DNA of 63,078 nt, the filler included, from Stramenopiles sp. TOSAG23-6 (lineage: Eukaryota): the NCBI GenBank assembly GCA_900128565.1. It is 23 parts of 23 records of this genome, joined end to end, with 100 filler letters (N's around TTAATTAATTAA, not from the genome) between each part and the next. Parts side by side here need not be neighbours in the genome. Positions count along the whole stretch, not along the records: positions 22,073 to 24,727 come from LT637897.1; 22 more parts are not named here. One strand, written 5' to 3'. The notes under the pieces are model-generated. The model was not told where the DNA came from, ran no database searches, and was given only the letters and a program-made list of their open reading frames with translations. The translations under genes and the position numbers were made by a program. Every line of letters begins with the position of its first letter. Within the stretch, counting starts at the first letter, position 1. Of the stretch, positions 2,662-49,579 are shown piece by piece.

Positions 2662-2790
2662 NNNNNNNNNNNNNNNNNNNNNNNNNNNNNNNNNNNNNNN
2701 NNNNNTTAATTAATTAANNNNNNNNNNNNNNNNNNNNNNNNNNNNNNNNNNNNNNNNNNNNGAAAAAAAACAAAAAATATAAAATAATAT

Positions 2791-3954: not shown

Positions 3955-4205
3955 CTGTATTAAGCCTTGTATGGTGTTCGCCAACTTTTACGTATTCGAT
4001 ACGCTTAATTAGCTTGGTACAGCTAATGGGTACCGGTAATTAAAAGCTCGCTGCGCTGGCTCGATCTCATCTCAGATTCTCGACTGCTCGATTTTTTGAT
4101 CAGATCGGTCATTTAAAACATCAAAAACATCACCGATTGCATTGTGCCGCTGCGCAGGCTTTCACATTTTATTTATGAATGATAAATAATTAATATTTTT
4201 TGCAA

Positions 4206-4856
4206 ATGTCAGATGGATACGACTACGATGCTCTTGTGAATGGAAACGCTATTGACCAGCAGCAATTGAATTCAAATGTATTAGAACTTAAAGTTGCACT
4301 TCTAAATGAGAAGCTTTGTCCTGAAATATTACAGTACAAAGATGAGCTCGTAGACGATATCAAGAAACAACTTGAGCTACAGCAAGACCTCATCATTCAA
4401 GGCGGCGGCCCGAATAATTTTTCAATTGCTATATATCAGATGGAGATTGATCGAATTCGTTTTATGCTTACCTCTTATTTGCGTGTGCGTTTGCTGAAGC
4501 TTGAAAAGTATGTGTTCTATATAATGGCAACCGCCGATTTCCACAACAGGTTATCACCAGGAGAGTTTGAATATGCAAAGCAGCACCTCAACAATATTGG
4601 ATCACATTTCAATGATTTAGTTTTAAACCATTTACCGGATAAGTTTAAGGGATTGGACGAGACTAAAACCCAGTTGGCAAAACCTCCTTTGAATGAATTC
4701 GTGTTTTGCCGAGTTAAGAAAGACATTGGTGATGTAGACGTTGGTGACTTAGACCTTGCAGGGGGGCATGTCGACCTTGAAAAAGATGATGCTTATCTAC
4801 TGCGATATATAGCAATTCAAACACAGTTATACGAAGGAAAAGTTGATCTTATTTAA
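4206..4856 (+). CDS. SLD5: GINS complex subunit Sld5 (duplicate copy 2)
   Basis: Identical to 1445-2095. Confidence 0.93.
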   Translation: MSDGYDYDALVNGNAIDQQQLNSNVLELKVALLNEKLCPEILQYKDELVDDIKKQLELQQDLIIQGGGPNNFSIAIYQMEIDRIRFMLTSYLRVRLLKLEKYVFYIMATADFHNRLSPGEFEYAKQHLNNIGSHFNDLVLNHLPDKFKGLDETKTQLAKPPLNEFVFCRVKKDIGDVDVGDLDLAGGHVDLEKDDAYLLRYIAIQTQLYEGKVDLI

Positions 4857-4884
4857 AAAATTTATTTCATGGAGTTACAATATT

Positions 4885-5283
4885 TTAAGAACTTTTTTTT
4901 TTTTTTTTACGGTTTGCGTTCTCAGTCGCCCACTTTTGTTGTTGTTTCCATATCGCTTCTTGATACATTCTCTGATATTCTACATCATCAAACCCAATCA
5001 ATGATTCTAAAGATGGACCCATAAAGTATAAGTATAACGAAGCTCCTGCCAACACGGTTACTATATGAATTTGGTACAAATAAACTCTGCAAAACATTGT
5101 TGTTACCAGTGCTAAAAAAACAAGAAATGTGCGTAATAGCATTGTTCCATTTACACCAATGTCATTAGACAAGCCATTTGATCCATATATACCTCTACTA
5201 TTTTTCATTTTCGATGAATCTCGATATACAGCTACGCACCAATCGCACCACTCATTTTTCATTTCAAAATAACTTGGACAGTT
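4885..5283 (-). CDS. Terminal exon of small membrane protein (duplicate copy 2)
   Basis: Identical to 2124-2522. Confidence 0.55.
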   Translation of the reverse strand, partial: NCPSYFEMKNEWCDWCVAVYRDSSKMKNSRGIYGSNGLSNDIGVNGTMLLRTFLVFLALVTTMFCRVYLYQIHIVTVLAGASLYLYFMGPSLESLIGFDDVEYQRMYQEAIWKQQQKWATENANRKKKKKSS

Positions 5284-5551
5284 ACGTATTGTGAAATATA
5301 GTTCACGTTTGAAATTCGTTAGGTACACAATGTTTTAGGAAAAACAATTTGAACAATAATACATCTGAATAAATTTGAACAATAAATTTGAACAATAAAT
5401 TTGAACAATAAATTTGAACAATNNNNNNNNNNNNNNNNNNNNNNNNNNNNNNNNNNNNNNNNNNNNTTAATTAATTAANNNNNNNNNNNNNNNNNNNNNN
5501 NNNNNNNNNNNNNNNNNNNNNNGAAAAAAAACAAAAAATATAAAATAATAT

Positions 5552-6715
5552 TTATTTGAATCTATTGCTAGATTTCAAACTATAAAGTTTGTTAGTAAGT
5601 CTTTGTGTTAAATCTGCCTCATTTTTAAGAAGATCTTCAAAAAAACCACTACTTCTACATGCAGTCAGGAGTAATGGAATATAATTACTAATTTTTCTTG
5701 CACTAGGTGATACATGTCCATTTGTACTTTTAATATTGTTCTTTTCATAGAAATCTTCGATAAATCTTGCTTGATTAGCAGTCCATCTTTCATATGGCCC
5801 TCTTTTTAGTGTTTTTCGTGTTTTCTTATCTGTACCAACTGCCCTCACTCGGTCGGGTGCCTTCCTTTTTAATGTCGAAGAAGCTGAAGCGTCAACCTTA
5901 AAACGTCCAGATAGAGGACCGCCGAAAGTAGAACTCCCACTTTCTTGACCATCACTAACAAACTCCCTCTTTCCACCAGCAATTTCCGCTGGTTCTACAT
6001 CTGCTTCTGCCGATGCTTTTGCTAGAGCTTGAATTATTACTGCTGGTTTTGGTTTTGGTTTTGCTTCTGCTTTTGCTTGAATTATTGCTGCTGCTTTTGC
6101 TTGAGCTTGAATTATTGCTGCTACTTTTGCTTTTGCTTCATGTGTTAAAGAAGACGCTTCACCTGTAACACTATTATGTGCACCCTGCTTTCCCTTAAAA
6201 ATACCTGTTTCTGAGAGAGACCCTGTTATTCTAGCAATCAAAACTTTAGCATGCAATTTCAACATATCCAAATCTTTACCATTTGCAAAGCCTTCCACAA
6301 GGTCGTCAAGTTCGTCTTCTGAAGATTCTGAGGATGAACTATCAGAATCTATTGCACCATCATCACCTGTAGCGTTTTTCAATTCTGACGGTAGAGAACG
6401 CGGGTTTTCATTAATAATTTCGTGATAAATATCTTCATTATTAGACTCTAAAGAAGTATCGGAAGTATCATCCTTCAAAATATCATGCCTCAAAATATCA
6501 TTTTTTTCTGTAAAAATTGTATTCCTCTCCAATTCCCATGGAAACTTCTGAATTGTATCCCTCTCGAAATCCCATGGAAACTCCTGAACCGCATCGGGGA
6601 ACTCCCGGAACTCTGACTTCCAAATCTTATCCGCACTGGGTAAATTAGTCGCGAGATTACACGTTAATCCCAAATCGAGGCATGAAAGAATTGTAAATAA
6701 ATAAATAAAATTCAT
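5552..6715 (-). CDS. Hypothetical protein (duplicate copy 3)
   Basis: Identical to 30-1193. Confidence 0.55.
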   Translation of the reverse strand: MNFIYLFTILSCLDLGLTCNLATNLPSADKIWKSEFREFPDAVQEFPWDFERDTIQKFPWELERNTIFTEKNDILRHDILKDDTSDTSLESNNEDIYHEIINENPRSLPSELKNATGDDGAIDSDSSSSESSEDELDDLVEGFANGKDLDMLKLHAKVLIARITGSLSETGIFKGKQGAHNSVTGEASSLTHEAKAKVAAIIQAQAKAAAIIQAKAEAKPKPKPAVIIQALAKASAEADVEPAEIAGGKREFVSDGQESGSSTFGGPLSGRFKVDASASSTLKRKAPDRVRAVGTDKKTRKTLKRGPYERWTANQARFIEDFYEKNNIKSTNGHVSPSARKISNYIPLLLTACRSSGFFEDLLKNEADLTQRLTNKLYSLKSSNRFK

Positions 6716-6966
6716 CTGTATTAAGCCTTGTATGGTGTTCGCCAACTTTTACGTATTCGATACGCTTAATTAGCTTGGTACAGCTAATGGGTACCGGTAA
6801 TTAAAAGCTCGCTGCGCTGGCTCGATCTCATCTCAGATTCTCGACTGCTCGATTTTTTGATCAGATCGGTCATTTAAAACATCAAAAACATCACCGATTG
6901 CATTGTGCCGCTGCGCAGGCTTTCACATTTTATTTATGAATGATAAATAATTAATATTTTTTGCAA

Positions 6967-7617
6967 ATGTCAGATGGATACGACTACGATGCTCTTGTGA
7001 ATGGAAACGCTATTGACCAGCAGCAATTGAATTCAAATGTATTAGAACTTAAAGTTGCACTTCTAAATGAGAAGCTTTGTCCTGAAATATTACAGTACAA
7101 AGATGAGCTCGTAGACGATATCAAGAAACAACTTGAGCTACAGCAAGACCTCATCATTCAAGGCGGCGGCCCGAATAATTTTTCAATTGCTATATATCAG
7201 ATGGAGATTGATCGAATTCGTTTTATGCTTACCTCTTATTTGCGTGTGCGTTTGCTGAAGCTTGAAAAGTATGTGTTCTATATAATGGCAACCGCCGATT
7301 TCCACAACAGGTTATCACCAGGAGAGTTTGAATATGCAAAGCAGCACCTCAACAATATTGGATCACATTTCAATGATTTAGTTTTAAACCATTTACCGGA
7401 TAAGTTTAAGGGATTGGACGAGACTAAAACCCAGTTGGCAAAACCTCCTTTGAATGAATTCGTGTTTTGCCGAGTTAAGAAAGACATTGGTGATGTAGAC
7501 GTTGGTGACTTAGACCTTGCAGGGGGGCATGTCGACCTTGAAAAAGATGATGCTTATCTACTGCGATATATAGCAATTCAAACACAGTTATACGAAGGAA
7601 AAGTTGATCTTATTTAA
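6967..7617 (+). CDS. SLD5: GINS complex subunit Sld5 (duplicate copy 3)
   Basis: Identical to 1445-2095. Confidence 0.93.
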   Translation: MSDGYDYDALVNGNAIDQQQLNSNVLELKVALLNEKLCPEILQYKDELVDDIKKQLELQQDLIIQGGGPNNFSIAIYQMEIDRIRFMLTSYLRVRLLKLEKYVFYIMATADFHNRLSPGEFEYAKQHLNNIGSHFNDLVLNHLPDKFKGLDETKTQLAKPPLNEFVFCRVKKDIGDVDVGDLDLAGGHVDLEKDDAYLLRYIAIQTQLYEGKVDLI

Positions 7618-7645
7618 AAAATTTATTTCATGGAGTTACAATATT

Positions 7646-8044
7646 TTAAGAACTTTTTTTTTTTTTTTTACGGTTTGCGTTCTCAGTCGCCCACTTTTGT
7701 TGTTGTTTCCATATCGCTTCTTGATACATTCTCTGATATTCTACATCATCAAACCCAATCAATGATTCTAAAGATGGACCCATAAAGTATAAGTATAACG
7801 AAGCTCCTGCCAACACGGTTACTATATGAATTTGGTACAAATAAACTCTGCAAAACATTGTTGTTACCAGTGCTAAAAAAACAAGAAATGTGCGTAATAG
7901 CATTGTTCCATTTACACCAATGTCATTAGACAAGCCATTTGATCCATATATACCTCTACTATTTTTCATTTTCGATGAATCTCGATATACAGCTACGCAC
8001 CAATCGCACCACTCATTTTTCATTTCAAAATAACTTGGACAGTT
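7646..8044 (-). CDS. Terminal exon of small membrane protein (duplicate copy 3)
   Basis: Identical to 2124-2522. Confidence 0.55.
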   Translation of the reverse strand, partial: NCPSYFEMKNEWCDWCVAVYRDSSKMKNSRGIYGSNGLSNDIGVNGTMLLRTFLVFLALVTTMFCRVYLYQIHIVTVLAGASLYLYFMGPSLESLIGFDDVEYQRMYQEAIWKQQQKWATENANRKKKKKSS

Positions 8045-8410
8045 ACGTATTGTGAAATATAGTTCACGTTTGAAATTCGTTAGGTACACAATGTTTTAGG
8101 AAAAACAATTTGAACAATAATACATCTGAATAAATTTGAACAATAAATTTGAACAATAAATTTGAACAATAAATTTGAACAATNNNNNNNNNNNNNNNNN
8201 NNNNNNNNNNNNNNNNNNNNNNNNNNNTTAATTAATTAANNNNNNNNNNNNNNNNNNNNNNNNNNNNNNNNNNNNNNNNNNNNAAAAAAAAAACACGAAT
8301 TTTTTTTAGGGAAAAAAAAAAATCGTTAGGTACAAAATTTCGTAGAAAAAAAAAAAAAAAAAAACCAAAAAAAAAATAAATAAATTAATAAATTCATGAT
8401 GAAAACGTAC

Positions 8411-11095: not shown

Positions 11096-13645
11096 ATGTA
11101 CATCAGAGGGCAAAAATTCGACTTTTTCGTGTGGAATAGGTAACCAATCGGATAAACCATAATCATAAGCAACACGAAATATGGCACAAATATCTTCATT
11201 TTGTGTGGTTGTTGTTGGAGAAAAAAGTTGAGGAGAAATATTTTTTTTTTCATCCATAACTTTCATATTGTCATCAAGCGACATTGCATTGAGTTCATCA
11301 TAATTAAATTGATGATAAATTTTTACTCTTTTTTTCATCGATTTACGTAATAATGAAATTTCCTTTGAGATTTCACTTTTTTTTTTCAAAACAAATTCAA
11401 TTAGTGTTCCTAATAAAATACCAGAATTTAACCACACACGAACCCGACTGCCTATCAAACGATTTAATTTCTTTTGTGATTTTTCATCCTTCAAATTCCA
11501 ATGTAAATCTGTATTAAAATTGAAATTTGAATTTGTCTTATTATCCGTCGTAATATCATTATCATTACTAGCATCACTCGAAAAAGAACAATTATCTACT
11601 ATTCCTCGAATATTTTTCAATTTTTCAGAGAGATGTATTTTGGAAAAATATTTCAAAAAAAAAAATTAAATTCGTTAGGTACAAAATTTCGTATGAAAAA
11701 ACAAAATCGATTTTTTTGTTAAAAAAAAAAAGTAAAACATACATGACTTTTTATACGTTTTTCATTCGTTTGATGATCTGGACGAATATCATTATAATTT
11801 CCATGAACTTTCATATATTTATTATATTCCTTCTTTTCTGATTCAAATCGTTTCACATCATCTTCTGCAAGTTTGATCTCCTCTGCTAAATCGGCTGGAG
11901 TGAGCTTTTTCATTTCTTTTTTTAATAAAGATATCCTTTCATATTGCGATAAATTGGGAAATAATTCTTGCATTGGTTGCATAAATTTAAGAACATAAAA
12001 ATCGAAGACACTTCGTGGAACATTTGGTTGTGGTTTTACATCAACATTTCCACGTTGACTACGTAGAGGAATTTTCCTTAAAACAATTTTACGACTATTG
12101 CTACTTTTTACACTGAACTTAAATTGATGTATACCAGTCATTTCCTTACTTTTAGTTGATAGTTTACAAGATTTTTTTTGTTTTTTTTGTTTCTTACAGT
12201 GAAAATCAGGAACAGAACTGTCTTTATAATTCCAAGTGACTTTTCGTTTTTGACCAGTTATGGCCACAGAATCACGTTCATCTAAAATATCTAAATCAGT
12301 TGTCTTGATTTCAGCAAGTCCATACTATACTGTGAAAAAATATTTTTGAAATATTTTTGAAATTTGTTTGGTAAAAATATTTTTTTAGTAAAAAAAAAAA
12401 AAATTGAAAAAATATTTTTGAAATTTGTTAGATATTATGATATTTTCTAGTAAAAAAAAATGAAATTCAAAAGGACGACGTACACGGTCTCGCTCTCTTT
12501 CGACAAATGCAGCGAGAATTTCAGGATTTTGTTTTTTCCATTGCATCAATTCTCTCGCATATCGAATTTTATCTTTTTCGTGTTTTTCATTTGCGATTTT
12601 TTTTTCTTCTTTTGTTGCTGCCTTCCAGCGGAGACCTAACTGACGATGAATATCCTGAGGTGTAGCATTTGGATCTGCTATTTTGATTAACGGTCGATGA
12701 ATTTCTGCAAAAAAATTGTATGGGATTTTCGGCCCTTTTGGTCCTCCAGGAATATATTGTGAAAAAAAAGTTCAAAACATTGTTTTGAAATTTGTTAGGT
12801 ACGAAATTTCGTACGAAAAAAATGAAAAAAAAAAAAAAAGTTCAAAACATTGTTTTGGAATTTGTTAGGTACGAAATTTCGTACGAAAAAAAAATGGAAA
12901 AAAAAAAAGTTGAAATTTTAATGGGAATGTACATTTTCCTTTGTCGTACGACTTTTCGTTTGCTTGGCTTTGGAGCTGTATCTTTTTGTATTAACCATTG
13001 TAAATATTCTCGCTTTCGCTGTTCACTTGAATCCCGATTTTTGATGTCACAAATGTGAATCGCTGGGCGACTTTTTTTTGAAGTTTTTATTGACTTTTTG
13101 AATTTGGTTTGATGAGATTTAAAACGAAATGAATGAAGCTCTCGCCCAAGTTCAATTGCTCTTCTATCTTTCTCAAAACAATCATCAGTGATTGGAATTC
13201 CACAGACATATTTATCTGTTTTTAATTCATATTTTGGATATTTTGTTTGAGTCAACAAAAGTTTTTCATCTTCATCAGAACTACAGCACGAAACTGCTTC
13301 AACAACATCAATATAAGGATTTTCATTCAACCATTTTGCAATATCTTTTGCATATCGATGTTTATCAAGAATAGACAGTCGATTCGCCTCAGCGATTTCT
13401 GCTTTTGTTGCCGCTGCCCAGCGATTTTTAATTACAACTTTCGTCTCAGCATTAGTTAATTGTGGATTTGTATTACGTAATTCGGCGCGAAGTTTAGTGA
13501 CAAATATATGATACGCTGGGATCCAACGTTTTGGACCTTTTCGACCTTCGATTCGAAGCTTCCTTCTCCTTAGATTTCGTGCAGACATTTCGAGATTTTG
13601 AAAACCATCATCATCGTGATCAGATCCAGAGTTATAAAATGAATC
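11096..13645 (-). CDS. Protein with three HMG boxes, partial; exons 13645-12933, 12751-12484, 12324-11743, 11632-11096
   Basis: HMG-box starts GPKRWIPAYHIF, GPKGPKIPYNFF and PNVPRSVFDFY. Exon phases are consistent after removing the family introns. Confidence 0.8.
11633..11742 (-). other. Non-canonical GT-AT intron (family member)
   Basis: CAT|GTATGT...TACCTAAC...TTCCAAAATACAT|CTC; phase-0 join KSH|LSE. Confidence 0.8.
12752..12932 (-). other. Non-canonical GT-AT intron with duplicated core motif
   Basis: AT|GTACAT...CACAATATAT|T; the join restores IPGGPKGPKIPY at an HMG-box start. Confidence 0.8.
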
Positions 13646-13801
13646 CTGTATTTTGGAAAAATATTTCAAAAAAAAATCTAAAAAAAATTGTTAGGTACAA
13701 ANNNNNNNNNNNNNNNNNNNNNNNNNNNNNNNNNNNNNNNNNNNNTTAATTAATTAANNNNNNNNNNNNNNNNNNNNNNNNNNNNNNNNNNNNNNNNNNN
13801 N

Positions 13802-19216: not shown

Positions 19217-19316
19217 NNNNNNNNNNNNNNNNNNNNNNNNNNNNNNNNNNNNNNNNNNNNTTAATTAATTAANNNNNNNNNNNNNNNNNNNNNNNNNNNN
19301 NNNNNNNNNNNNNNNN

Positions 19317-21972
19317 TACCATTAGATCAAGACGACATGCAATTTCAAGGTATAACAATTCTCCGTACAGAGATCTATATTTATAGCCTGATATAAATTT
19401 CGCATTTTGTCTTTCGTTCCCATTTTTCTCTTCTAGAACATCGTTTGTTGTTCTTTCAAGAGGTATTTTCGGATTCGGATTCATCGGAGTCTTCCTCTCT
19501 CGAGTTATACTTCGACCGTGTTTATTCATGATCTTTTCATATTTAGATAAAATGTCCAATACTTTTTGTTTCATGGAGACTTTGATTTCACCGTTGTCTC
19601 TCAGTTCAAAATTCATACCAATGTATGTGTATTGTTTCTTATTCATGTCAATGGTAAGATCTCCTTCAGACCATTTTTGCTTCATAGCGTCGAAAAGTTC
19701 GGTTGCTATTTCGTCATTATTGTAAACACAGAAAAAGTCGTCTACATGACATGCAATGTACATCACGCCTTTTTGTGTTTTCTTGACGAAGATGCATTCA
19801 TCAGTTGGGCAATTCTTGAAACCCTGATCTTGGAGAAATTTTCGTAGAACTCTATACCAAGCTGATGAACTCGATTTAAGTCCGTATAGGGAGCCTTTTA
19901 AATTAATAATGAAATTCTTATTATTGAAAGGAGTATTTCCCCATTCTTTCTTCCAAAGATTATTCTGTTTTAGAACTTTCTCTATATGCTTAGCGTTCAG
20001 TCCATGTGGTAGGTCCATTCCTATTATCATTCCTGATTCGAGACACGATTTTAGAAACGCTCCTGTTACATCGGCTGTGGCAATTTTCCAAGTAATTTTC
20101 TCATTTCTCCTGTATTGTTGCGTTCGTTCAAATGCACATTTTGTAGTTAGCATTCTAACGCTTATTGTATTGCTTACGGGTGAATATGAGAATTGATAGT
20201 CGATCCCTTTTACCATACCAAAGCCTCTAGCACATATTCTCGCTTTTATTTTGTTGAGAAGTCCGTCCTTTGCTGGTTTAACTTTCATAACAATGCGACT
20301 TGTCATATGCTGAGCTTTTGGATATTTTCTTTTGAAGTCTTTCCTTAGCATGAATTCGGTGATGTCGTTTCTTAAATTGAGTACGACTTCATCCGATTGT
20401 GCTAAGTTTATTCCTTCTTGAATTAGAATTGGTAATGCTTCGAATTCGGCTTGATTGGAAGGATTTTCTGGCCATTCTCTGACTGGTCCAAGTTCTTCGC
20501 GATGCGCTNNNNNNNNNNNNNNNNNNNNNNNNNNNNNNNNNNNNNNNNNNNNNNNNNNNNNNNNNNNNNNNNNNNNNNNNNNNNNNNNNNNNNNNNNNNN
20601 NNNNNNNNNNNNNNNNNNNNNNNNNNNNNNNNNNNNNNNNNNNNNNNNNNNNNNNNNNNNNNNNNNNNNNNNNNNNNNNNNNNNNNNNNNNNNNNNNNNN
20701 NNNNNNNNNATTACTGTGACTACATTTGCATTGCTATGATTGGATGCTTGACTTTCTCCTTCTTTCGATCCTTCATTCTCAGTTGTACTTGATTTTCGTT
20801 TTCTTCTTATTTCGTTTCTTCTCTTTTCTGTATTTCTCATTTCGTTATCCAGTACTTGTCTGATAATGTTACATATTGTATATCTTGTTTGAATCAAGTT
20901 AGAATTAGTTATCAACGATTTTCGTTTAATTTTAATTCTTTGTTGGATCTTGATACGACTGGATTTAGTAATATGTTTTGTATTATTTATCGTTTGCATG
21001 AAGTTCATATACGTCTTGCGTAGCTTTTTCTTTAGCTGATTACTTTGCTTTTCTTGCTTTTCTTGTAGCCGTTTCGATTTCCTTATTTNNNNNNNNNNNN
21101 NNNNNNNNNNNNNNNNNNNNNNTCCTTATTTCTTGTACCTTGGCCTTACGAGCCTTACGTCTTTGTTTGCGCAATACTTTGGCTCCTTCCTTTATCGCCG
21201 ATTCACTTGGTTTGAATTCTTTCGCATTGCGATCGAATTCATGTTTACTTTCGTCTGTTGGTTTTTCGGGTTTATCCGTATCCGAAATTTTTGTTGAAGA
21301 ATCTAAAACATCAGTAGATTGTTCATTCGATATTTCCGAAGAATCTATCTTTTCTGGTGTTGATTTTTCTTGTGTTCGATCTTGTGTATTATTTCCCCCA
21401 GTACTACTATTTGGAGTATCCAAATTTGTAGTGCTTGAATTGCGAACAGAAGGATCTTCCATTCTGTGTTCGTGTATTCTTGGGTCGAAAAGGAAACTTT
21501 TACTTCCTGAAGGTAAATCTTTGGGTGATAGTACCCATCTTTTCTTTCCATCGGGAAAAATAGCGGCGTACCATTTATTTGGCTGAAACTCTTCCTCGCA
21601 TTGCATAGTAAAAGTGTCGTTGCTATTTGATGTTTCTTTCGATTCGATCGATTTGGATTCTAGTACATCTTCCGGCACCACGTCTTGTTTATATTCGTGA
21701 CGTCGTTGCTGTAATGCACCTTTGCTACGATCCGGGATGTCTTTATTATAATTCAGGTCATCTTGATATACTTGCCGTTCTGTTTCATCTGTCCAATCGA
21801 ATTCATGTGACTTCCGTACGATTTCATACCCATCTTTTCCTTTTACTATCCATGTTTTTGTTATCTTAGGAGTGGTTGGAAATAGATCATCTGCGCTGTA
21901 GAGTAGAGTATGTCTACTTCTTGTAGTCGCATTGTTCGGTATAACTCTTCGTCCGGCTTCGCATGGAAATAA
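19317..21972 (-). mobile_element. Ty1/Copia LTR retrotransposon pol fragment; reverse transcriptase at about 19317-20400
   Basis: RVT_2 motifs KARICARGF, GIDYQFSYSPV, ADVTGAFL, LKGSLYGLKSS..AWY, HVDDF, YRSLYGELLYL..CRLDL. The upstream low-complexity ORFs are interrupted by N gaps, so their assignment to the element is inferred. Confidence 0.9.
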
Positions 21973-22132
21973 NNNNNNNNNNNNNNNNNNNNNNNNNNNN
22001 NNNNNNNNNNNNNNNNTTAATTAATTAANNNNNNNNNNNNNNNNNNNNNNNNNNNNNNNNNNNNNNNNNNNNTTTTTCGTACGAAATTTTGTACCTAACG
22101 ATTTTTTTTTGAAATATTTTTTCACAAAACAT

Positions 22133-23425
22133 GTTCTTCTGTCACACACAGAATTGACTAACCTCCTTGCAGAATTTAGACAATATGCTGTTTTAAACGA
22201 TTGGCCTCCACCGCATGACAAACAATCTTGGCTTAATAGAAAAAAAGATGATCCAAAATTAGTGTGTCCTTTGTTTCCTTTAGTATTGGCAGCATATTTG
22301 CGAAACCGTGAACCTCACGGGTGGAGTTGGGGTTTAGGTGATGGAAAATTATATGTAGTGAATAAGTTACTTCATAGTAGATCATGTATCTTTGTATCAT
22401 TTCTTTGCTTCGGATTTATATTTTCAGTAATGGCAACATTCATTGATGAAAAAGAAAAGGTTGCTGTTGAAGGAGAAGAAGATAAATGGACAGCATCAGT
22501 TTATAATTTAAATGGAATAGCAAAAGTTTTGTATACTTTTGGGTTTGTTGGTTGCCTTGACATCATCGTAAAAAATATTGCTGGAAAATTCCGACAAATT
22601 TCTACGGGAAAGTACGTTTTCATTATGAATTTCAAATTTATTTATTTTTTAGTACGAAATTTTGTACCTAATAAATTTCGAATTTTAATCTTTTTTACAA
22701 TACATGTCAATACTACGTCGTTGGGCGGCAAACATCCAAAATGATGTACATAATGATCGAGATATCGAGAATAAAACTGTAAAGCAAAACACAAGTTTAT
22801 TAGGCGAACTTGCAGATGTTGATGGAGATGGATGCATGTTTTATTTTTTTTTAATTCGAATTTTTGTTTCGTACGAAATTTTGTACCTAACGATTTTTTT
22901 CAGATATTTTTCCAAAATACATGTGTTGAAGTTTCTGAATTGAGGGCATTATTACTAGGTAGCGATATACCAATCAGTGAGCCTGCGATTCAATATATTT
23001 CACTTCAAATGCAAAAAATATCTCTAAATGATACTAAAATTGACCATGAAGAGTTCCAAAACTTTGTGATGTCCTTAAAATGTTCAACTAAAGTTGAGGA
23101 AAGCCTCTTTGTTTTTGAGCATGCGGTGCGAAATCCGATGATTTACGCTTTAGTATTTGCCATACTTTCATGCGCACTCGGTCTTGGTCAACATTTTGTC
23201 TGGGAAAGTAAAATAGTAATTGCCAAAGTAGCTGAATGCATGACGTTGTTCAGCGGTACAGTACCTATATATTACTACACTCAAGTAAAATGTGATCATT
23301 ATTTACTTGTGCAACAAGGAAAGCTTAATCTTGCCTGGGTTTTTAGAAACAGGATTACACAAAAGGAAAAAAAATCTTTAAAAGTTGCTGTAAAAAAGAC
23401 TCAACATCTAAATTTCTGGTTGTAA
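22133..23425 (+). CDS. Membrane protein with an EF-hand pair, 5'-partial; exons 22133-22611, 22706-22833, 22923-23425
   Basis: Splicing yields an intact EF-hand DVDGDGCVEVSEL and a second lobe KIDHEEFQNFV; several hydrophobic segments. Confidence 0.75.
22612..22705 (+). other. Non-canonical GT-AT intron
   Basis: AA|GTACGT...GTACGAAATTTTGTACCTAAT...TTACAATACAT|G; frame preserved. Confidence 0.8.
22834..22922 (+). other. Non-canonical GC-AT intron within an EF-hand loop
   Basis: T|GCATGT...TACCTAAC...TCCAAAATACAT|GT gives an exact 12-residue EF-hand loop. Confidence 0.85.
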
Positions 23426-23640
23426 TATTTAGTATTACTCATGAAATACAAATAATAAAAAGAAACGAGAAAAGGTTTACCGAGAATATACAATGTCACA
23501 AAAGCTTAGTTGTAGTCGAGTTTTATAAATTTCATCTAAATAAATTTGTTGAAAAATAATTCATTGATCATTTTTTTTTTCGTACGAAATTTTGTACCTA
23601 ACAAAAACAAAATTTGAAATATTTACTAGATGTTCAACTC

Positions 23641-24672: not shown

Positions 24673-24879
24673 ACGTATTGTGAAAAAATATTTCAAAAAA
24701 AAATCGTTAGGTATGAAATTTCGTATGNNNNNNNNNNNNNNNNNNNNNNNNNNNNNNNNNNNNNNNNNNNNTTAATTAATTAANNNNNNNNNNNNNNNNN
24801 NNNNNNNNNNNNNNNNNNNNNNNNNNNCAAAATTTCGTACGAAAAATAAATTCGAAATTGAAAAAAAAATAAAACATAC

Positions 24880-26514: not shown

Positions 26515-27400
26515 ATGGGAATGTATATGGAACCGCGCGATTGTAGACTCCCAAAGCTGCTGCCTCTTCGCACTCGTTTTGTGAAGCAGATTACTCCCTG
26601 TGGTTTCTCCGTTCTTCATCCGCTTCAGGAAGAGCCTTACACCACTGGAAACTTTCACTACCCGTCAACATATCGTGGGAATCTTACCGAAGTGCTACAC
26701 GGGAAACGAATTGAAGATCCATATCGGTGGCTAGAAGATTCGGATAATGCAGAAGTTACAAATTGGGTGGAGCGGCAGATGGACTGTACTTCTAACTACA
26801 TGAAAGCTCATTCTACAACAGTTGCAAATCTTCAGAAAGAAATGACTGCTTTATGGGATTATGAAAAGTTTGGCACTCCTTTTCGACGAGGCAATCGTTA
26901 TTTTTTTTTTAAGAATGATGGTTTACAGAATCAATACGTACTATGTATGTTTTATTTTTTTTCAAATTGGATTTTTTTTTCGTACGAAATTTTGTACCTA
27001 ACAGTTGTTTTTTGAAATATTTTTCCAAAATACATATAAGTGTAATTCATTGGAAGAAGCTATGTCCGGAAAGGCAACTGTGCTTCTCGATGTCAATACT
27101 TGGCGCACTGACGGGACTGCAGCCTTTAAGTTTGTGGAATTTTCTGAAGATGGTCTTTACTTAGCGTATGGTATTTCACTCAGTGGTTCCGATTGGACGA
27201 CTATCTATGTTCGCGATGTTGCATCAGGAAAAGATCTTTCTGATAAGATTGAGTGGGTGAAATTTTCGGGCGTTTCATGGACCCATGATAATCTTGGTTT
27301 CTTTTATAGTAGATATCCAGAACCTAGTCTAAACTTAGGAAAAGAAGACGCAGCTGGTAGTGAAACGGCTGGAAACCGTGATCATATGGTTTACTATCAT
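26515..27400 (+). CDS. PREP: Prolyl oligopeptidase (S9A), N-terminal part; exons 26515-26944, 27036-27400
   Basis: LHGKRIEDPYRWLED, YFFFKNDGLQNQYVLY, FSEDGLYLAYGISLSGSDW, WVKFSGVSWTHD..GFFYSRYP. Confidence 0.95.
26945..27035 (+). other. Non-canonical GT-AT intron
   Basis: T|GTATGT...TTCGTACGAAATTTTGTACCTAAC...TTCCAAAATACAT|AT restores GLQNQYVLY. The next AG (27039-40) gives an immediate stop. Confidence 0.88.
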
Positions 27401-27582
27401 GTACGTTTTCATCATGAATTTCAAATTTATATTTTTTTTTATAGAAAATTTTGTACCTAAACAAAAAAGTTTTTTTTTTTTTNNNNNNNNNNNNNNNNNN
27501 NNNNNNNNNNNNNNNNNNNNNNNNNNTTAATTAATTAANNNNNNNNNNNNNNNNNNNNNNNNNNNNNNNNNNNNNNNNNNNN

Positions 27583-27627
<45 letters not shown>

Positions 27628-27683
27628 GTATGAAATTCTGTACGTAAGATTTTTTTTTTTTGAAATATTTCTTCATAATCCAT

Positions 27684-28159
27684 GCTATTGCTGATAGAGA
27701 TGAACTTACTGTAAAATTGAAAGCAGAAATTGCCCAAGTTTCAGTTTTTAGAGACAGAGCAAAAGTTGCTGAGAGGCAATTACAATCATTGGAAAAATGT
27801 TTACTTAGAGATGGAATGGATGAACCATCTGAAGCAGCATTAAAATTGTTAAAAGTGGCGAATAATCACGTAAGTATTCCTCCTTTATTATTACATTTTT
27901 TTTTCGTACGAAATTTTGTACCTAATGATTTTAAGTTTTTTTTTTACCTAACAAAACATTCTATATAAAAACATATTTTCCTACAATTTATCTTGCAGAA
28001 GCAAGAAGATGTGAAAATGCCAGATACAAAGCAGAAGCTGCACTATCTCCACTAAAAAGTCACCTAATGCTTTTGAAAAAACGATCTGCAGAAAAAATTT
28101 CATCACTGCGAAACCAACTACAAGAAGAAAAAAGACGCAATGCTGAATTATTTAGCTAA
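27684..28159 (+). CDS. C-terminal exons of a coiled-coil protein (27684-27869, 27992-28159)
   Basis: GT-AT intron 27870-27991 (CAC|GTAAGT...CTACAATTTAT|CTT) gives a continuous coiled-coil ORF to TAA. Confidence 0.65.
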
Positions 28160-29571: not shown

Positions 29572-30134
29572 TTAGCTAAATAATTCAGCATTGCGTCTTT
29601 TTTCTTCTTGTAGTTGGTTTCGCAGTGATGAAATTTTTTCTGCAGATCGTTTTTTCAAAAGCATTAGGTGACTTTTTAGTGGAGATAGTGCAGCTTCTGC
29701 TTTGTATCTGGCATTTTCACATCTTCTTGCTTCTGCAAGATAAATTGTAGGAAAATATGTTTTTATATAGAATGTTTTGTTAGGTATGAAATTTTTTTTA
29801 CGGAAACCAAAAAAAAAAAAAAAAAAAAAAAAAATGTTTTTNNNNNNNNNNNNNNNNNNNNNNNNNNNNNNNNAAAAAAAAACTTAAAATCATTAGGTAC
29901 AAAATTTCGTACGAAAAAAAAATGTAATAATAAAGGAGGAATACTTACGTGATTATTCGCCACTTTTAACAATTTTAATGCTGCTTCAGATGGTTCATCC
30001 ATTCCATCTCTAAGTAAACATTTTTCCAATGATTGTAATTGCCTCTCAGCAACTTTTGCTCTGTCTCTAAAAACTGAAACTTGGGCAATTTCTGCTTTCA
30101 ATTTTACAGTAAGTTCATCTCTATCAGCAATAGC
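29572..30134 (-). CDS. Mirror copy of the 27684-28159 gene end
   Basis: Lies in the inverted arm; probably artefactual. Confidence 0.4.
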
Positions 30135-30190
30135 ATGGATTATGAAGAAATATTTCAAAAAAAAAAAATCTTACGTACAGAATTTCATAC

Positions 30191-30235
<45 letters not shown>

Positions 30236-38458: not shown

Positions 38459-38579
38459 ATGTATTTTGGAAAAATATTTNNNNNNNNNNNNNNNNNNNNN
38501 NNNNNNNNNNNNNNNNNNNNNNNTTAATTAATTAANNNNNNNNNNNNNNNNNNNNNNNNNNNNNNNNNNNNNNNNNNNN

Positions 38580-39352
38580 TCTTTATCTTTGACCAGGGCA
38601 ATAATTTCGGATTCTAATTCATTTATTGCGTCTAGTTTGGAGTTCTCTTTCTGCTTGTCTCTATGTTTTGGGCGGTGTTTTACATTCAATACGCGTTCTT
38701 TTTTATTACTTACATGCCATATTTCGGTATTTTGTTTTTCATATTCCGACTTTTTTATCATTCTTTCATGTTCAAGCGAACCTTGTGTCCCTTCTTTCTT
38801 ATTCAAAGAACCTCGATGCAACGGTATAAGTTTTCGATGTGTTCGTTTTTTACGAGGACTTCTACGCGGAGAAGTATTTACTTGTTTTGACCTTGTACTT
38901 TCTAAAAACAGTCGGTACTCATCTGCCATTTCTGGTGAGAGACAGTTATAATCTATTTCATCGTTTTTACTTAACGCTTTAGATGTAATTATTTCCATAC
39001 CACGTTGAGCGCGGTATTGGTTTATATATTGCATTGAATCATTAACAGCATTTTTTGCTTCGTCGAGTACATCTTTTACTTTATCGTCTACTTTATCTGA
39101 TATTTGATTTCGATTTACGTGATTACCTTGTTCCATCGATGACTTTGAGCGTTTTGGTTTTAATTTATAACGTGGCGAACTACTAAACAAATTCTTGTTG
39201 GAAATATCTTTTACACTCAGTTCACTATTCCAGGTTTTTATAAGCTTTTCACGTTTTTTTCTCTGCTTTAGGCGTTGAACCTTTACGGACAACATTGTTT
39301 TGTCAAGATCGGCAATAACACTATTTATACTTTCTTCCCAAGGAGAGGCCAT
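38580..39352 (-). CDS. Paralog of the adjacent calflagin-like gene, 3'-partial
   Basis: N-terminus PWEESINSVIADLDKTMLS..RLKQR is similar to the neighbour, and both run into identical DAINELESEIIALVKDK. Confidence 0.7.
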
Positions 39353-39689
39353 TATTATTATTTCAAGATAAATACAAAACACGTTAATGGATCTCTATCC
39401 GCCAATCTGTATATCTACCATGGGCATTTGTTCCCTTTAAGACCAACGTGAAAACTATTGAAATAGCAATGAACCTAATAAGTACGTGTAACTCATGCAA
39501 GATATTATTTTGCTAGTCAAATGAAATGATTAGATTATTTTTTACGGTTTCAAAAACGTTTCGGACTTGACTTGACTTGAGTCAGCGATGATTAATTATA
39601 TCTTAATACTTACGGTAGTAGATTGCAATTTTAGATCTGAATTGCTCCTTTCTTTGAATTAAATATACGACACATCTGGATGTATTGCA

Positions 39690-41224
39690 ATGAGTAATAT
39701 GTCGAATTCATGGGAGGATGCTATTGACAGTGTTATTGCTGACTTGGATAACACAATGCTTTCGGCAAAAATACATCGTTTAAAGCAGCGGCGTCAGCAA
39801 TCGAGGTTGATTAAACATTTTGAAAGTGAACGCCTTGCAGAGGCTCAGAGTCAACGAGAGGCGCGCCAGTCAAACTACGTTTTAAAGAATATGCAACGAT
39901 TAAAAGTTGCGGCGAAACTTATTCCGGATCCAAAGACAGTTTGTTCAAAACCATTATCTGATAGCAAAGATGATTACTTGTGGAATCAAGTTACTGCGGA
40001 AGTCAAAGATGCTGTCAAAAAAGCTGAAGTTGCAGTCTTTGAGTCAAAGTCATATATTAAGCAATATCGGCATAGAAAAGGTTTTTTACCTGGAGAGGAT
40101 AGAGTATCTCCTAAAAACAATGTCTCAGATTTGTCCTATTTATCCTCACAAATGTCACAGGATTATCAAACTTTTCTCGAAAGTCTTCAAAGGAAATCTG
40201 GTTTGAAAAAATCACAACCACATAAAATGAAAGCTTCAAAAGCACATGNACAAACAAAGTCAAGGTTGAACGGTAAGAAGAATGGAAAACATAAACACAG
40301 CACTGCCCTTGTTAGCTCAAATGTGAAAGTATTAGATTCACGTGAAACGACAATAAAAAAATTAGAAAAACAGATTCTACATCTTACTAACTCTCCTGGT
40401 AGTAAAAACGAACTTCTATCCTTGTGGAACGCAATGGATAAAAATGGAAACGGAATTTGTTCATTAGCTGAGGTGGATTGTTTCATTGTAGAAACATTTC
40501 CGGTTTTAAACTCTAAACCTGTGTTATTACAGGCTTACAATACAACTTGTCGCCAAGGAAATAACCCTAACCGAAGTGACACTTCTTGGGTGTATAAAAA
40601 AGATTTTTGTACTCTTTTACGAAATATTTTCTATTTCACTCGAGCCTGGGATGTATTCGAAATAATTGATGAAAATCATGATCGTCGGATTACTCTTGAT
40701 GAGTTTATAGCAGCCAAGGAATATCTTGGTTTGAATATTTCAGATTATAATGCTGAAAAAGAATTTCAAAATATTGATAAAGATGGTGGCGGTATGGTAC
40801 TGTTTGGTGAATATTGTCTTTGGCTGGCGTATTTTACACAGGATTTAGAAATCCTTGAAACAAGAATGGTTGCAAACGCTGGTGAAATAAAGCAAAAATT
40901 GCAAACTAATGGCATGATAAAACACAACAAATCAAGTTCAAGGCCAAAACGAAGTAAAAAGCATGTGAGCTCGAATAGAATGCCAGGAAGACGCAAAGCA
41001 ATTCGACGAGCCAGTGCGGCACTTGCAGCTGGAGAAGTACCTGATAAACAAGATTTGAAAGCGCTTCGACTGCATCAAAGACGACAAAAAGAACGGAATG
41101 GTAAGGTAAAAACTACCCCATCTAGTAAATGTCAAAGTCTTCCATCCATTACATTTCAAAATAAAAAAATAGACGCAATAAATGAATTAGAATCCGAAAT
41201 TATTGCCCTGGTCAAAGATAAAGA
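39690..41224 (+). CDS. EF-hand protein with a flagellar calcium-binding (calflagin-like) domain, 3'-partial
   Basis: LWNAMDKNGNGICSLAEVD, FPVLNSKPVLLQAY, IDENHDRRITLDEF, IDKDGGGMVLFGEYCLW. Confidence 0.8.
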
Positions 41225-41324
41225 NNNNNNNNNNNNNNNNNNNNNNNNNNNNNNNNNNNNNNNNNNNNTTAATTAATTAANNNNNNNNNNNNNNNNNNNN
41301 NNNNNNNNNNNNNNNNNNNNNNNN

Positions 41325-49547: not shown

Positions 49548-49579
<32 letters not shown>

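What the first reader, a model, noticed from the sequence alone, without database searches (positions are those of the whole stretch)
22834..22922. GC-AT intron, non-standard at both ends, pinned by an EF-hand loop
Only an 89-nt excision gives the canonical 12-residue loop D-V-D-G-D-G-C-V-E-V-S-E. The upstream CAG (22901-03) shifts the frame and the downstream AG deletes three loop residues. The donor is GCATGT.
Basis: seen in the sequence. Interest (0 to 1): 0.7.

Follow-up and report, generated by a model that had tools for sequence, protein, structure and literature searches.

The report
Transposon-derived intron ending in AT

Summary
Confirmed. RNA contigs from two seawater poly(A) metatranscriptome runs join 22831 to 22921, skipping 89 nt. 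The join fits four registers equally: AT..AC, TG..CA, GC..AT and CA..TG. Only this excision keeps the reading frame and the EF-hand loop. It also scores best against a profile built from four distant homologues: 196.7 bits, against 183.9 for the downstream AG and about 74 for the CAG or no splicing.

The family's 20-nt core has 52 matches in the window against 0 expected, and a profile of it has 53 hits. Family ends are GT in 18 of 19 copies, with this copy the only GC. The 3' ends are AT in 21 of 26 copies, and AG at the same position in 3.

Three things favour the GC..AT register. The homologous AG copies are one. Seven of 19 copies lack AT before the GT. The neighbouring intron's junction lysine is conserved in 4 of 4 homologues.

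Best reading: a MITE-like introner with an AT target-site duplication, removed by a spliceosome that accepts U as the last intron base. The host looks like an uncultured MAST-3-type marine stramenopile. I found no published description. It is a new variant of a known kind.

The parts
22834..22922 (+). The 89-nt intron in the family register (GC..AT). The same mRNA results from 22832-22920 (AT..AC), 22833-22921 (TG..CA) and 22835-22923 (CA..TG).
   Evidence: RNA joint 22831->22921, skips 89, both=3, in X1 and X3. Register equivalence by script. Full-length family member: nhmmer model positions 1-101, E 2e-15.
22834..22842 (+). 5' splice-site block GCATGTTTT. The family consensus is GTAYGTTTT, and this copy has T->C at +2.
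   Evidence: Alignment A1. Logo of 19 unique 5' ends: G1 19/19, T2 18/19, G5 19/19, T6 19/19.
22832..22833 (+). Exonic AT just before the intron, read as the 5' copy of a 2-bp AT target-site duplication.
   Evidence: AT precedes the 5' splice site in 12 of 19 copies, against a background of 0.096 in long ORFs (binomial 1.7e-8). AT is its own reverse complement, so it can also be read as the tip of the inverted repeat.
22871..22891 (+). Conserved 21-nt core GTACGAAATTTTGTACCTAAC. Its 3' part, CCTAAC, is the putative branch site (A22890, 32 nt from the last intron base).
   Evidence: 52 matches with up to 3 mismatches in the window against 0 in 100 shuffles. GTACCTAA is invariant in A1. Distance from the motif to the 3' end is 32-47 nt, median 41, in 16 copies. 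The branch-site role is inferred.
22892..22911 (+). T-rich tract between the core and the 3' motif. It contains the unused CAG at 22901-22903.
   Evidence: Pyrimidine fraction 0.62 downstream of the motif. The CAG lies 13 nt after A22890 and its use gives a stop after 50 aa. Other copies have GAA at that place.
22912..22922 (+). 3' terminal motif CCAAAATACAT. It is the inverted-repeat partner of the 5' end, and the last two bases (AT) are read as the 3' copy of the target-site duplication.
   Evidence: Logo of 26 unique 3' ends: C-10 24, A-9 25, T-5 25, C-3 21, A-2 24, T-1 23 with G-1 3.
22930..22931 (+). Downstream exonic AG, not used.
   Evidence: Its product stays in frame but shortens the EF loop and scores 183.9 bits against 196.7 for the 89-nt product. 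No joint shown uses it.
22706..22833 (+). Exon 2 of the EF-hand membrane-protein gene. It carries the first half of the EF loop (D-V-D-G-D-G plus the first base of the Cys codon).
   Evidence: RNA contigs X3 record 18 (22739-22831, no mismatch) and X2 record 12 (22706-22834). Collinear with homologues P0241-P0244.
22923..23425 (+). Exon 3, with the second half of the EF loop, a second EF-like segment, transmembrane segments and the stop codon.
   Evidence: RNA contigs cover most of 22921-23481 (table 8). Six homologues at E<=1e-3. The homologous region of P0241, P0242 and P0243 is a Pfam EF-hand.
22612..22705 (+). Neighbouring intron of the same family (subfamily GTACGTTTTCAT...), 94 nt, GT..AT, with no AT before the GT.
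   Evidence: X2 record 12 aligns only from 22706. The junction codon is Lys, conserved in 4 of 4 homologues, whereas the -2 register would give Met and scores 192.2 against 196.7 bits.
22073..22132 (+). 3' part of a third family intron, ending ...CACAAAACAT. Its 5' part is lost in a contig linker.
   Evidence: nhmmer hit 22071-22132, model 31-101. RNA contig X1 record 3 aligns from 22131 without a mismatch, not from the AG at 22149-22150.
22133..22611 (+). Exon 1b of the same gene. The gene's 5' end lies beyond the contig linker.
   Evidence: ORF. RNA contigs X1 records 3 and 4 and X4 record 27. Collinear with homologues.

Best explanation
22834-22922 is a genuine intron of a gene for an EF-hand-bearing multi-pass membrane protein. 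It is one copy of a short (87-144 nt), AT-rich, MITE-like 'introner' family that occupies most introns visible in this window.

Each element brings three things: a yeast-like 5' splice site (GTAYGT, here GCATGT), a conserved core ending in CCTAAC about 32-47 nt from the 3' end (a likely branch site), and a T-rich tract. Its two termini are inverted repeats (GTAT.TTTT / AAAATAC), so the 3' end of the element is AC, not AG.

Insertion duplicates an AT target. Cutting from the G of GT (or GC) to the T of the downstream AT copy removes the element plus one copy of the duplication. That restores the original coding sequence exactly.

What is shown: the precise 89-nt removal in RNA contigs, the family, its end statistics, its sense orientation in genes, and frame restoration.

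What is inferred:
- that the machinery is a U2-type spliceosome tolerating U at the last intron position (a G+1/U-1 terminal pair in place of G/G)
- that CCTAAC is the branch site
- that the AT is a target-site duplication
- that the element moved as DNA
For: RNA:
- The joint 22831->22921 skips 89 nt in one contig each of X1 and X3.
- X2 record 12 and X1 record 3 place the ends of the two neighbouring introns at ...ACAT| too.

Protein:
- Only the 89-nt product keeps the EF-loop pattern.
- A profile of four distant homologues, built without the window protein, gives 196.7 bits for it, 183.9 for the AG-22931 product, 74.2 for the CAG product and 73.5 unspliced. There is no gap at either junction. 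P0243 has D-I-D-G-D-G-C-I-G-L-S-E at that place.
- That region is a Pfam EF-hand in P0241, P0242 and P0243.

Family:
- 52 core matches against 0 expected, and 53 nhmmer hits at E<=1e-3.
- 13 full copies align with 66% mean column identity and share spacer sequence within subfamilies.
- 5' ends are GT in 18 and GC in 1 of 19. 3' ends are AT in 21, AG in 3 and GT in 2 of 26.
- AT precedes the 5' site in 12 of 19 copies, against 0.096 background.
- Orientation relative to ORFs of 100 codons or more: 36 sense, 6 antisense, 5 both, 6 none, of 53 hits, with duplicated assembly blocks included.
- 15 of 16 GY..AT introns keep at least 30 codons open downstream in the upstream frame. Seven of those 15 have no AG within -45..+25 that would do the same.
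- In the prolyl-oligopeptidase gene the exons flanking intron 26945-27035 match Pfam Peptidase_S9_N up to profile position 95 and from 103.
Against: - The two joints have short sides (27 and 24 letters, below the tool's 30-letter caution) and were laid at 90% likeness. They carry the flag 'between: not known', and both runs belong to one study.
- Contigs cannot show whether the joined form also exists as DNA (table 5b was not given). An allele without the insertion in the sampled population would give the same contigs.
- The register is not observed directly. AT is palindromic, so a target-site duplication and an inverted-repeat tip cannot be told apart from sequence.
- No snRNA, U2AF or other spliceosome gene could be examined, because no genome is held and Rfam found nothing in the window. 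The type of machinery therefore rests on motif resemblance alone.
- No autonomous transposon and no empty site were found.
- The family counts include some duplicated assembly blocks. Searches counted unique end sequences only.
- The intron's RNA fold is not better than shuffles (z -0.68).
Confidence: 0.78

Rival explanations
1. Same 89-nt intron, cut in the AT..AC register (22832-22920), as in AT-AC introns where A+1 pairs with C-1. The GT and the final AT are then only neighbours of the real sites.
For: The tool's own left-justified reading of the joint is AT..AC. 12 of 19 copies have AT before the GT and 21 of 26 have AC before the final AT. AT-AC is an established intron class, whereas GT-AT is rare (passages of PMC1557818).
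Against: Seven of 19 copies lack the upstream AT while 19 of 19 keep G at +1. Three copies have ...ACAG at the aligned 3' end, which is canonical only in the GT register. For intron 22612-22705 the -2 register is AA..AC. It predicts Met where 4 of 4 homologues have Lys, and the RNA contig aligns from 22706, not 22704. ATGCATGT is a poor match to both the U2-type and the U12-type AT-AC 5' consensus (consensus recalled from memory).
Confidence: 0.1
2. The family is removed by a transformed minor (U12-type) spliceosome, as proposed for the transposon-born U12-type introns of Physarum. GT..AT is then one of the termini that machinery is known to tolerate.
For: GT-AT can be spliced by the U12-type machinery and makes up 7 of 66 non-canonical U12-type introns in PMC1557818 (passages). 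[quoted passage not shown] Here the 5' block is conserved to +9 and differs from Physarum's GTATCTTT only at +5.
Against: The 5' block is GTAYGT, not RTATCC (C+5 in 0 of 19 and C+6 in 0 of 19). There is no TCCTTAAC-like motif within 10-26 nt of the 3' end. The conserved CCTAAC lies 32-47 nt away and is followed by a T-rich tract, which is U2-type anatomy.
Confidence: 0.07
3. The element is not spliced in this genome. The joined RNA contigs come from other cells of the population that lack the insertion (an empty site), or the element is removed at the DNA level.
For: The runs are environmental metatranscriptomes of mixed populations. Contigs cannot tell RNA removal from a DNA form without the element, and table 5b was not given. 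Exact restoration of the target is what an empty site would look like.
Against: Read-through of this copy stops the protein. About fifty copies sit in sense orientation inside ORFs that are only restored by their removal. Without RNA-level removal most genes in the window would be broken. Element sequence is abundant in the RNA contigs (bins with depth 10^3-10^4), though those contigs come from many copies and DNA carry-over cannot be excluded.
Confidence: 0.04
4. Non-spliceosomal excision guided by pairing of the inverted-repeat ends, like the nonconventional introns of Euglena or the hairpin introners of Amoebophrya.
For: The termini are inverted repeats (ATGTAT... / ...ATACAT). The minimum-energy fold pairs the two intron ends. 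Such systems are described in passages of PMC11282704 and PMC7789003.
Against: The fold is no better than shuffles (z -0.68; 40 of 200 shuffles fold at least as well). The consensus fold has -1.72 kcal/mol and no compensatory pair (0 of 9). The 5' end is a near-invariant canonical-looking GTAYGT with a branch-like motif and a T tract at the usual spacing. Three copies are plain GT..AG.
Confidence: 0.05

Closest known systems
Non-canonical, MITE-derived introns of the tunicate Fritillaria borealis and relatives (NAR 2026, PMC13326754: outline, sections 4 and 21, and passages read; review PMC11282704: passages read; the 2019 Current Biology paper itself was not seen)
   Same: Genome-scale use of non-GT/AG termini linked to transposon insertion. 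3' AT is the commonest 3' end there (44% of F. pellucida and 34% of F. borealis introns). The last three intron bases form a YAY triplet, which here is CAT. A T-rich tract is kept in the 3'-AT classes. Splicing there is by the U2-type spliceosome alone.
   Different: There the main 5' dinucleotide is AG (AG/AC 18%, AG/AT 16%) and termini are very diverse. Here the 5' end is a uniform canonical-looking GTAYGT (19 of 19 G+1) and essentially one class, GT..AT. The host here is a protist, not an animal. Whether U2AF is duplicated here, as in F. borealis, could not be tested.
Introners of Micromonas, Aureococcus, dinoflagellates and others (Gozashti et al. 2022, PMC9860276; Gozashti et al. 2025, PMC12130899; passages read)
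   Same: Short, non-autonomous, multi-copy elements in unrelated genes, with inverted-repeat ends and a target-site duplication. The element carries one splice site and takes the other from the duplication, so the mRNA is restored.
   Different: Those families are described with canonical or accepted termini. The 2025 survey's curation text lists only AG and AC as 3' sites, so a GT..AT family would have been inspected as 'unfamiliar'. A 2-bp AT duplication lies outside the 3-9 bp range quoted there.
Transposon-born U12-type introns of Physarum polycephalum (preprint 10.1101/2020.10.12.336362, passages read)
   Same: Mass intron gain from an element with inverted-repeat ends and a 2-bp palindromic duplication (TA there, AT here). 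GT-AT occurs among its non-canonical termini. The earlier annotation there allowed only GY-AG.
   Different: Physarum introns carry the U12-type 5' motif RTATCYTT and a branch motif 10-12 nt from the 3' end. Here the 5' motif is GTAYGT and the conserved branch-like motif lies 32-47 nt from the end.
Introner elements and non-canonical introns of Amoebophrya (PMC7789003, passages read)
   Same: A marine protist with repeated introns bounded by direct repeats overlapping the exon/intron border and by inverted repeats, so that borders are ambiguous by a few bases.
   Different: Amoebophrya shows no dominant terminal dinucleotide and has predicted hairpins. Here one dinucleotide pair dominates and no significant hairpin is predicted.
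Rare GT-AT introns of animals (Sheth et al. 2006, PMC1557818, passages read)
   Same: The same terminal dinucleotides. Examples include a U2-type GT-AT intron conserved between human and mouse (DGCR2) and conserved U12-type GT-AT introns (DEADC1, SLC24A6).
   Different: Those are isolated single introns (7 of 66 non-canonical U12-type introns across four species), not a repeat family and not the majority class.

Membership tests
Introner / MITE-derived spliceosomal intron | Many sequence-similar copies as introns of unrelated genes | tested here: met
   52 core matches against 0 expected. 53 profile hits. Copies lie in the EF-hand gene, prolyl oligopeptidase, glycine dehydrogenase, a GYF/WW gene and others. 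Subfamilies share spacer sequence, not only signals.
Introner / MITE-derived spliceosomal intron | Terminal inverted repeats | tested here: met
   The 5' (AT)GTATGTTTT against the reverse complement of the 3' AAAATAC(AT). Both ends are the most conserved blocks besides the core. The repeats are short (6-9 nt) with one unpaired G.
Introner / MITE-derived spliceosomal intron | Target-site duplication | tested here: inconclusive
   AT flanks the 5' end in 12 of 19 copies and ends 21 of 26. In the oligopeptidase gene that AT is part of a Tyr codon at a position where the exons meet the Pfam profile almost without a gap, which fits a target origin. But AT is palindromic and no empty site was found.
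Introner / MITE-derived spliceosomal intron | Removal restores the reading frame; sense-strand bias within genes | tested here: met
   15 of 16 keep the frame open. 36 sense against 6 antisense.
Introner / MITE-derived spliceosomal intron | Evidence of mobility (presence/absence between strains or species; autonomous partner) | not testable with these tools
   No genome is held. The core 21-mer has 0 matches in metagenome contigs and viral contigs. A partial copy lies outside coding sequence at 23567-23605.
Canonical U2-type GT-AG / GC-AG intron | 5' GT or GC with a U1/U6-type extended motif | tested here: met
   GCATGT here; the family has GTATGT, GTACGT or GTAAGT.
Canonical U2-type GT-AG / GC-AG intron | CTRAY-type branch motif followed by a pyrimidine tract at the usual distance | tested here: met
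   CCTAAC lies 32 nt from the end (family 32-47 nt), with downstream pyrimidine fraction mostly 0.55-0.72. This is motif resemblance only; the branch point was not mapped.
Canonical U2-type GT-AG / GC-AG intron | 3' terminal AG | tested here: not met
   The last two bases are AT here and in 21 of 26 copies; only 3 of 26 have AG. The nearby CAG and AG are not used.
U12-type (minor) intron | 5' motif RTATCCTT | tested here: not met
   G at +5 and T at +6 in 19 of 19 copies. The consensus is taken from passages.
U12-type (minor) intron | Branch motif TCCTTAAC close to the 3' end (about 10-26 nt), no pyrimidine tract | tested here: not met
   The last 30 nt read T-rich tract plus CCAAAATACAT. The conserved CCTAAC is 32-47 nt away.
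U12-type (minor) intron | Minor snRNAs and proteins present in the genome | not testable with these tools
   No genome is held. Rfam finds nothing in the window.
EF-hand calcium-binding loop (for the exon junction) | 12-residue loop with D/D/D/E ligands at positions 1, 3, 5 and 12, Gly at 6, hydrophobic at 8 | tested here: met
   The PROSITE-type pattern (recalled) matches only the 89-nt product.
EF-hand calcium-binding loop (for the exon junction) | Pfam EF-hand model above threshold | tested here: inconclusive
   The separate exons give no Pfam hit. The joined product was not sent to Pfam. The aligned region of the homologues passes: P0241 EF-hand_7 35.5 bits, P0242 EF-hand_7 49.6 bits, P0243 EF-hand_1 28.1 bits.

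The most novel reading that the evidence does not exclude
An uncultured MAST-3-type marine stramenopile has been invaded genome-wide by one introner with an AT target. GT..AT, not GT..AG, is then its majority intron class. Its spliceosome (U2AF or the step-2 active site) has changed to accept U at the last intron position, pairing G+1 with U-1. Public gene models built with a GT-AG rule would be wrong for a large share of its genes. This would be a further independent origin, and the first in stramenopiles, of wholesale non-canonical splicing driven by a transposon. Its unusually uniform splice code would make 3' splice-site recognition directly testable.
Probability: 0.45. Interest if true: 0.82.

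Novelty: new variant of a known kind. Interest (0 to 1): 0.68.

Why it matters
The GT/AG rule is almost universal, and the few lineages that break it at scale are the main natural experiments on why the rule exists. Those lineages are Fritillaria, Amoebophrya, euglenids, and Physarum for the minor system.

This window shows a cleaner case than those. One element family has a canonical-looking 5' site and branch motif, and a single changed position, the last base (T instead of G). A few sister copies carry the canonical G at the same place. That comes close to a natural mutagenesis series for 3' splice-site choice.

It also shows how a transposon whose inverted-repeat tip doubles as a 5' splice site (GT...AC) forces a non-AG 3' end if the mRNA is to be restored.

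There is a practical consequence too. Gene prediction that allows only GT-AG will mis-model genes of this organism. The one public model I could compare (P0121) has three tiny GT..AG 'introns' cut into an uninterrupted ORF.

Tried and rejected
- Source organism. I first suspected a Fritillaria-like tunicate because of 3' AT and YAY. I dropped this because the 5' ends are GT, not AG, and the nearest database protein to the window's ABC-transporter ORF bears a EukProt label beginning GSMAST32 (93% identity). Its sequence equals the window ORF apart from three excised pieces. Glycine dehydrogenase was not informative, at 64-76% identity to stramenopiles and bacteria alike.
- Whole genome. None is held, so I have no genome-wide counts, snRNAs or U2AF genes.
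- Other collections. The core 21-mer has 0 matches in metagenome contigs and 0 in viral contigs. The second metagenome scan that this allowed was not used.
- Structure. The single-sequence fold gives z -0.68. The consensus fold gives -1.72 kcal/mol with no compensatory pair. The near-palindromic core shows A.C and G.G mismatches in variants by eye, with no covariation. I rejected a structural signal.
- Rfam at gathering thresholds finds 0 matches in the window.
- Protein searches. Pfam on the three separate exons gives 0 families. Exon 3 against proteins of 292 aa or more in the word-indexed search gives none. The full HMMER scan then found 6. The ESM Atlas look-up of P0241 returned only generic EF-hand clusters with scores of 0.84 or less.
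- Nested or two-step splicing. Removing the internal GTACGA...CAG segment first does not create an AG, and the CAG is absent from other copies.
- Earlier findings. Nothing for this genome or sequence. The word search returned two Ostreococcus cases only.
- Uncovered parts of the gene in read laying. Several bins have no depth in some runs. I draw no conclusion from them.
- Literature. 'introner' with 'GT-AT' gives 0 papers. 'MAST-3' with 'introns' gives 6 papers, none about splice sites judging by titles and abstract starts. Searches gave nothing on non-canonical introns in marine stramenopiles. PMC5778133 mentions introns only in methods passages.
Full report
**The observation.** The exon ends ...GATGGAGATGGAT at 22833, and GCATGT starts at 22834. 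A CAG lies at 22901-22903, the stretch ends ...CCAAAATACAT at 22922, the exon resumes GTGTTGAAG, and an AG lies at 22930-22931.

- Removing 89 nt leaves a 209-aa open frame from the start of exon 2, with the loop D-V-D-G-D-G-C-V-E-V-S-E. It is the only product matching an EF-loop pattern (pattern recalled from PROSITE).
- The CAG acceptor shifts the frame, with a stop after 50 aa.
- The downstream AG keeps the frame but shortens the loop by three residues.
- Read-through stops after 78 aa.

The same script shows that shifting both borders by -2, -1, 0 or +1 gives the identical mRNA. These registers are AT..AC, TG..CA, GC..AT and CA..TG.

**RNA evidence.** Ten RNA runs, all seawater metatranscriptomes from five studies, hold words of the gene. 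I laid four of them on 22074-23640. The joint 22831->22921 (skips 89, 'both' 3) appears in one contig of X1 (depth 3.8, side 27) and one of X3 (depth 4.36, side 24).

The two contigs complement each other. X1 record 7 has its long arm on exon 3 (22921-23044). X3 record 18 has its long arm on exon 2 (22739-22831). X2 record 12 (22706-22834, short unaligned tails on both sides) fits the same spliced form.

No joint among the 15 shown uses either AG; 11 joints were not shown. There are caveats. The sides are under 30 letters, likeness was set to 90, both runs come from one study, and contigs cannot exclude a DNA form without the element.

The flanking introns behave alike. X1 record 3 begins at 22131, right at ...AAAACAT, not at the AG at 22149-22150. 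X2 record 12 begins at 22706, right after ...ATACAT.

**Homology evidence.** The separate exons have no Pfam match, and the word-indexed search found no long relatives of exon 3. A full HMMER scan of 1.84 billion representatives then found six.

Four of these (P0241-P0244, 28-34% identity) align with the spliced product across all three exons, without a gap at either junction. At the junction of the finding, P0243 reads D-I-D-G-D-G-C-I-G-L-S-E and P0241 reads D-A-D-G-N-G-I-I-E-A-S-E. That region is a Pfam EF-hand in P0241, P0242 and P0243.

A profile built from the four homologues alone scores the products as follows:

| Product | Bits |
|---|---|
| 89-nt excision | 196.7 |
| Downstream AG (22931) | 183.9 |
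| CAG (22903) | 74.2 |
| Unspliced | 73.5 |

The intron holds a 20-nt core that occurs 52 times in the window with up to 3 mismatches, against 0 in shuffles. Thirteen full-length copies align over about 100 columns with 66% mean identity. A profile of that alignment finds 53 hits at E<=1e-3 in 63 kb. Some of these lie in duplicated assembly blocks.

Copies share not only end motifs and the core but also spacer sequence within subfamilies. One example is the GTACGTTTTCATCATGAATTTC type of intron 22612-22705. A partial copy lies between two convergent genes at 23567-23605. This goes beyond a strict splice-signal grammar, which is the caution raised by two earlier Ostreococcus findings.

Relative to ORFs of 100 codons or more, 36 hits are sense, 6 antisense, 5 ambiguous and 6 near no ORF. 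Removing GY..AT keeps at least 30 codons open downstream in 15 of 16 copies tested. In 7 of those 15, no AG between -45 and +25 would do so, and three have no AG there at all. An earlier, cruder version of this test gave 11 of 15, with one 3' end mis-set by my pattern and two ties.

In the prolyl-oligopeptidase gene, the exons around intron 26945-27035 match the Pfam beta-propeller profile up to position 95 and from position 103.

**The register.** Unique end sequences give these counts:

| Position | Count |
|---|---|
| +1 G | 19 of 19 |
| +2 T | 18 of 19 (this copy is the one C) |
| +5 G, +6 T | 19 of 19 each |
| -1 T | 23 of 26 |
| -1 G | 3 of 26 |
| -2 A | 24 of 26 |

So the ends are AT in 21, AG in 3 and GT in 2 of 26. 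Three arguments place the cut after the T:
1. The three copies with ...ACAG or ...ATAG at the same aligned position are plain GT..AG introns only in this register.
2. The exonic AT before the GT is common (12 of 19, against 0.096 background, p about 2e-8) but absent in 7 of 19, whereas the GT never is.
3. Intron 22612-22705 has AA before its GT. Its RNA contig starts at 22706. Its junction codon is Lys under GT..AT, which is Lys in 4 of 4 homologues, but Met in the -2 register (192.2 against 196.7 bits).

The +1 register (CA..TG) gives the same products but no consistent dinucleotides across copies. The unusual end is the 3' one.

**Mechanism (inferred).** The element's ends are inverted repeats, (AT)GTATGTTTT and AAAATAC(AT). 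An element whose tip reads GT on one side must read AC on the other. With a 2-bp AT duplication, the only cuts that restore the target are GT...AC+AT or AT+GT...AC.

The element supplies a yeast-like 5' site. It also supplies a conserved CCTAAC 32-47 nt (median 41) from the end, followed by a T-rich tract. This is U2-type anatomy. AGs lying 13 nt or so after the CCTAAC, as the CAG does here, are skipped.

I propose a U2-type spliceosome that accepts U at -1 (a G+1/U-1 pair in place of G/G; the role of the terminal pair is recalled knowledge). 3' site choice might be helped by the conserved CAMAATACAT block or by a changed U2AF, as shown for Fritillaria (PMC13326754, sections 4 and 21).

Pairing of the two ends is predicted but is no better than shuffles. 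A minor-spliceosome route is a live but weaker rival. GT-AT is tolerated by U12-type splicing, but the 5' and branch motifs do not fit.

**Host and context.** The window has about 30% G+C. It carries contig linkers (N runs around TTAATTAATTAA) and duplicated blocks, and holds eukaryotic genes. The nearest protein to its ABC-transporter ORF carries a EukProt label beginning GSMAST32. That protein equals the ORF except for three short pieces removed as GT..AG 'introns' from an uninterrupted frame. I read the host as an uncultured MAST-3-type marine stramenopile, with public models made under a GT-AG rule.

**Comparison and novelty.** Transposon-born introns with unusual ends are known. The cases are Fritillaria (AG/AC, AG/AT; 3' AT the commonest end), Amoebophrya, euglenids, and Physarum's U12-type introns with a TA duplication. 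Canonical introners can take one splice site from the duplication.

A uniform GT..AT family with a 2-bp AT duplication in a stramenopile was not found in eight literature searches (with 9 and 19 for the tunicate). Supplements were closed. I file it as a new variant of a known kind.

Noticed in passing
window 21973-22072, 24728-24827, 27484-27582 and others: N runs of about 100 nt with TTAATTAATTAA in the middle (a six-frame stop linker) join contigs. Several breaks fall inside copies of the intron family, so the repeat seems to have broken the assembly. Genes on the two sides of a linker need not be neighbours.
   Followed up: partly
window 1-8300; 27620-27950 vs 29870-30200; 49570-51970 vs 52300-54700; 38528-39394 vs 39663-41276: Blocks are repeated: three tandem copies with a 2761-nt period at the start, an inverted duplicate pair around 28-30 kb, and a direct duplicate around 50-54 kb. 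Two paralogous genes end in the same residues at linkers. This looks like amplification or assembly artefact, or recent duplication. It inflates raw copy counts of the family.
   Followed up: partly
window 57688-60354 (-): The public gene model P0121 equals this uninterrupted 889-codon ABC-transporter ORF, except that its N-terminus starts later and three short in-frame pieces (about 24-75 nt, bounded GT..AG) were removed as introns. They look like artefacts of a predictor limited to GT-AG.
   Followed up: yes
window 13647-13701 (-), 48393-48476 (-), 51215-51282 (-) with its duplicate 53944-54011: Three family copies end in AG at the position where the others have AT. Two of them start GTAATT or GTAAGT. 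Within one family the last base is therefore T or G, a natural series for testing 3' site choice.
   Followed up: partly
window 2525-2591 (-) with duplicates, and 24675-24727 (-): Two unique copies end ...ACAATACGT at the aligned 3' end (G at -2). Where these are cut is unknown.
   Followed up: no
window 22871-22886 and all copies: The core GTACGAAATTTTGTAC is a near-perfect palindrome, and some copies have the perfect GTACGAAATTTCGTAC (for example 12795-12818). It is more conserved than the rest of the element. Variants break rather than compensate the pairing, so it may be a DNA-level site (a transposase site or a symmetry centre) rather than an RNA hairpin. Its function is unknown.
   Followed up: partly
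window 27870-27991 (+), duplicate on the minus strand near 29880-30000: This intron has a different 5' arm (GTAAGTATTCC...) but the family core, and ends ...ACAATTTAT. The AT end keeps 55 codons open, whereas the good-looking CTTGCAG acceptor 7 nt further on gives only 18.
   Followed up: yes
window 19272-20507 (-): A Ty1/copia-type reverse transcriptase ORF (Pfam RVT_2, 80 bits), interrupted by N runs. It is a second kind of mobile element beside the intron family.
   Followed up: partly
window 22133-23425 (+) and proteins P0241-P0244: The host gene belongs to a family of roughly 500-aa multi-pass membrane proteins with internal EF-hand pairs. Apart from the EF-hands it has no Pfam family, and it is known here only from unnamed environmental or genomic proteins.
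   Followed up: partly
laid stretch 22074-22126, 22869-22921, 23558-23610: Bins over element sequence reach depths of 10^3-10^4 in the poly(A) RNA contigs, while exons lie at 2-6. Element-containing RNA, from unspliced transcripts or excised introns of many loci, is therefore abundant in these libraries. DNA carry-over cannot be excluded.
   Followed up: no
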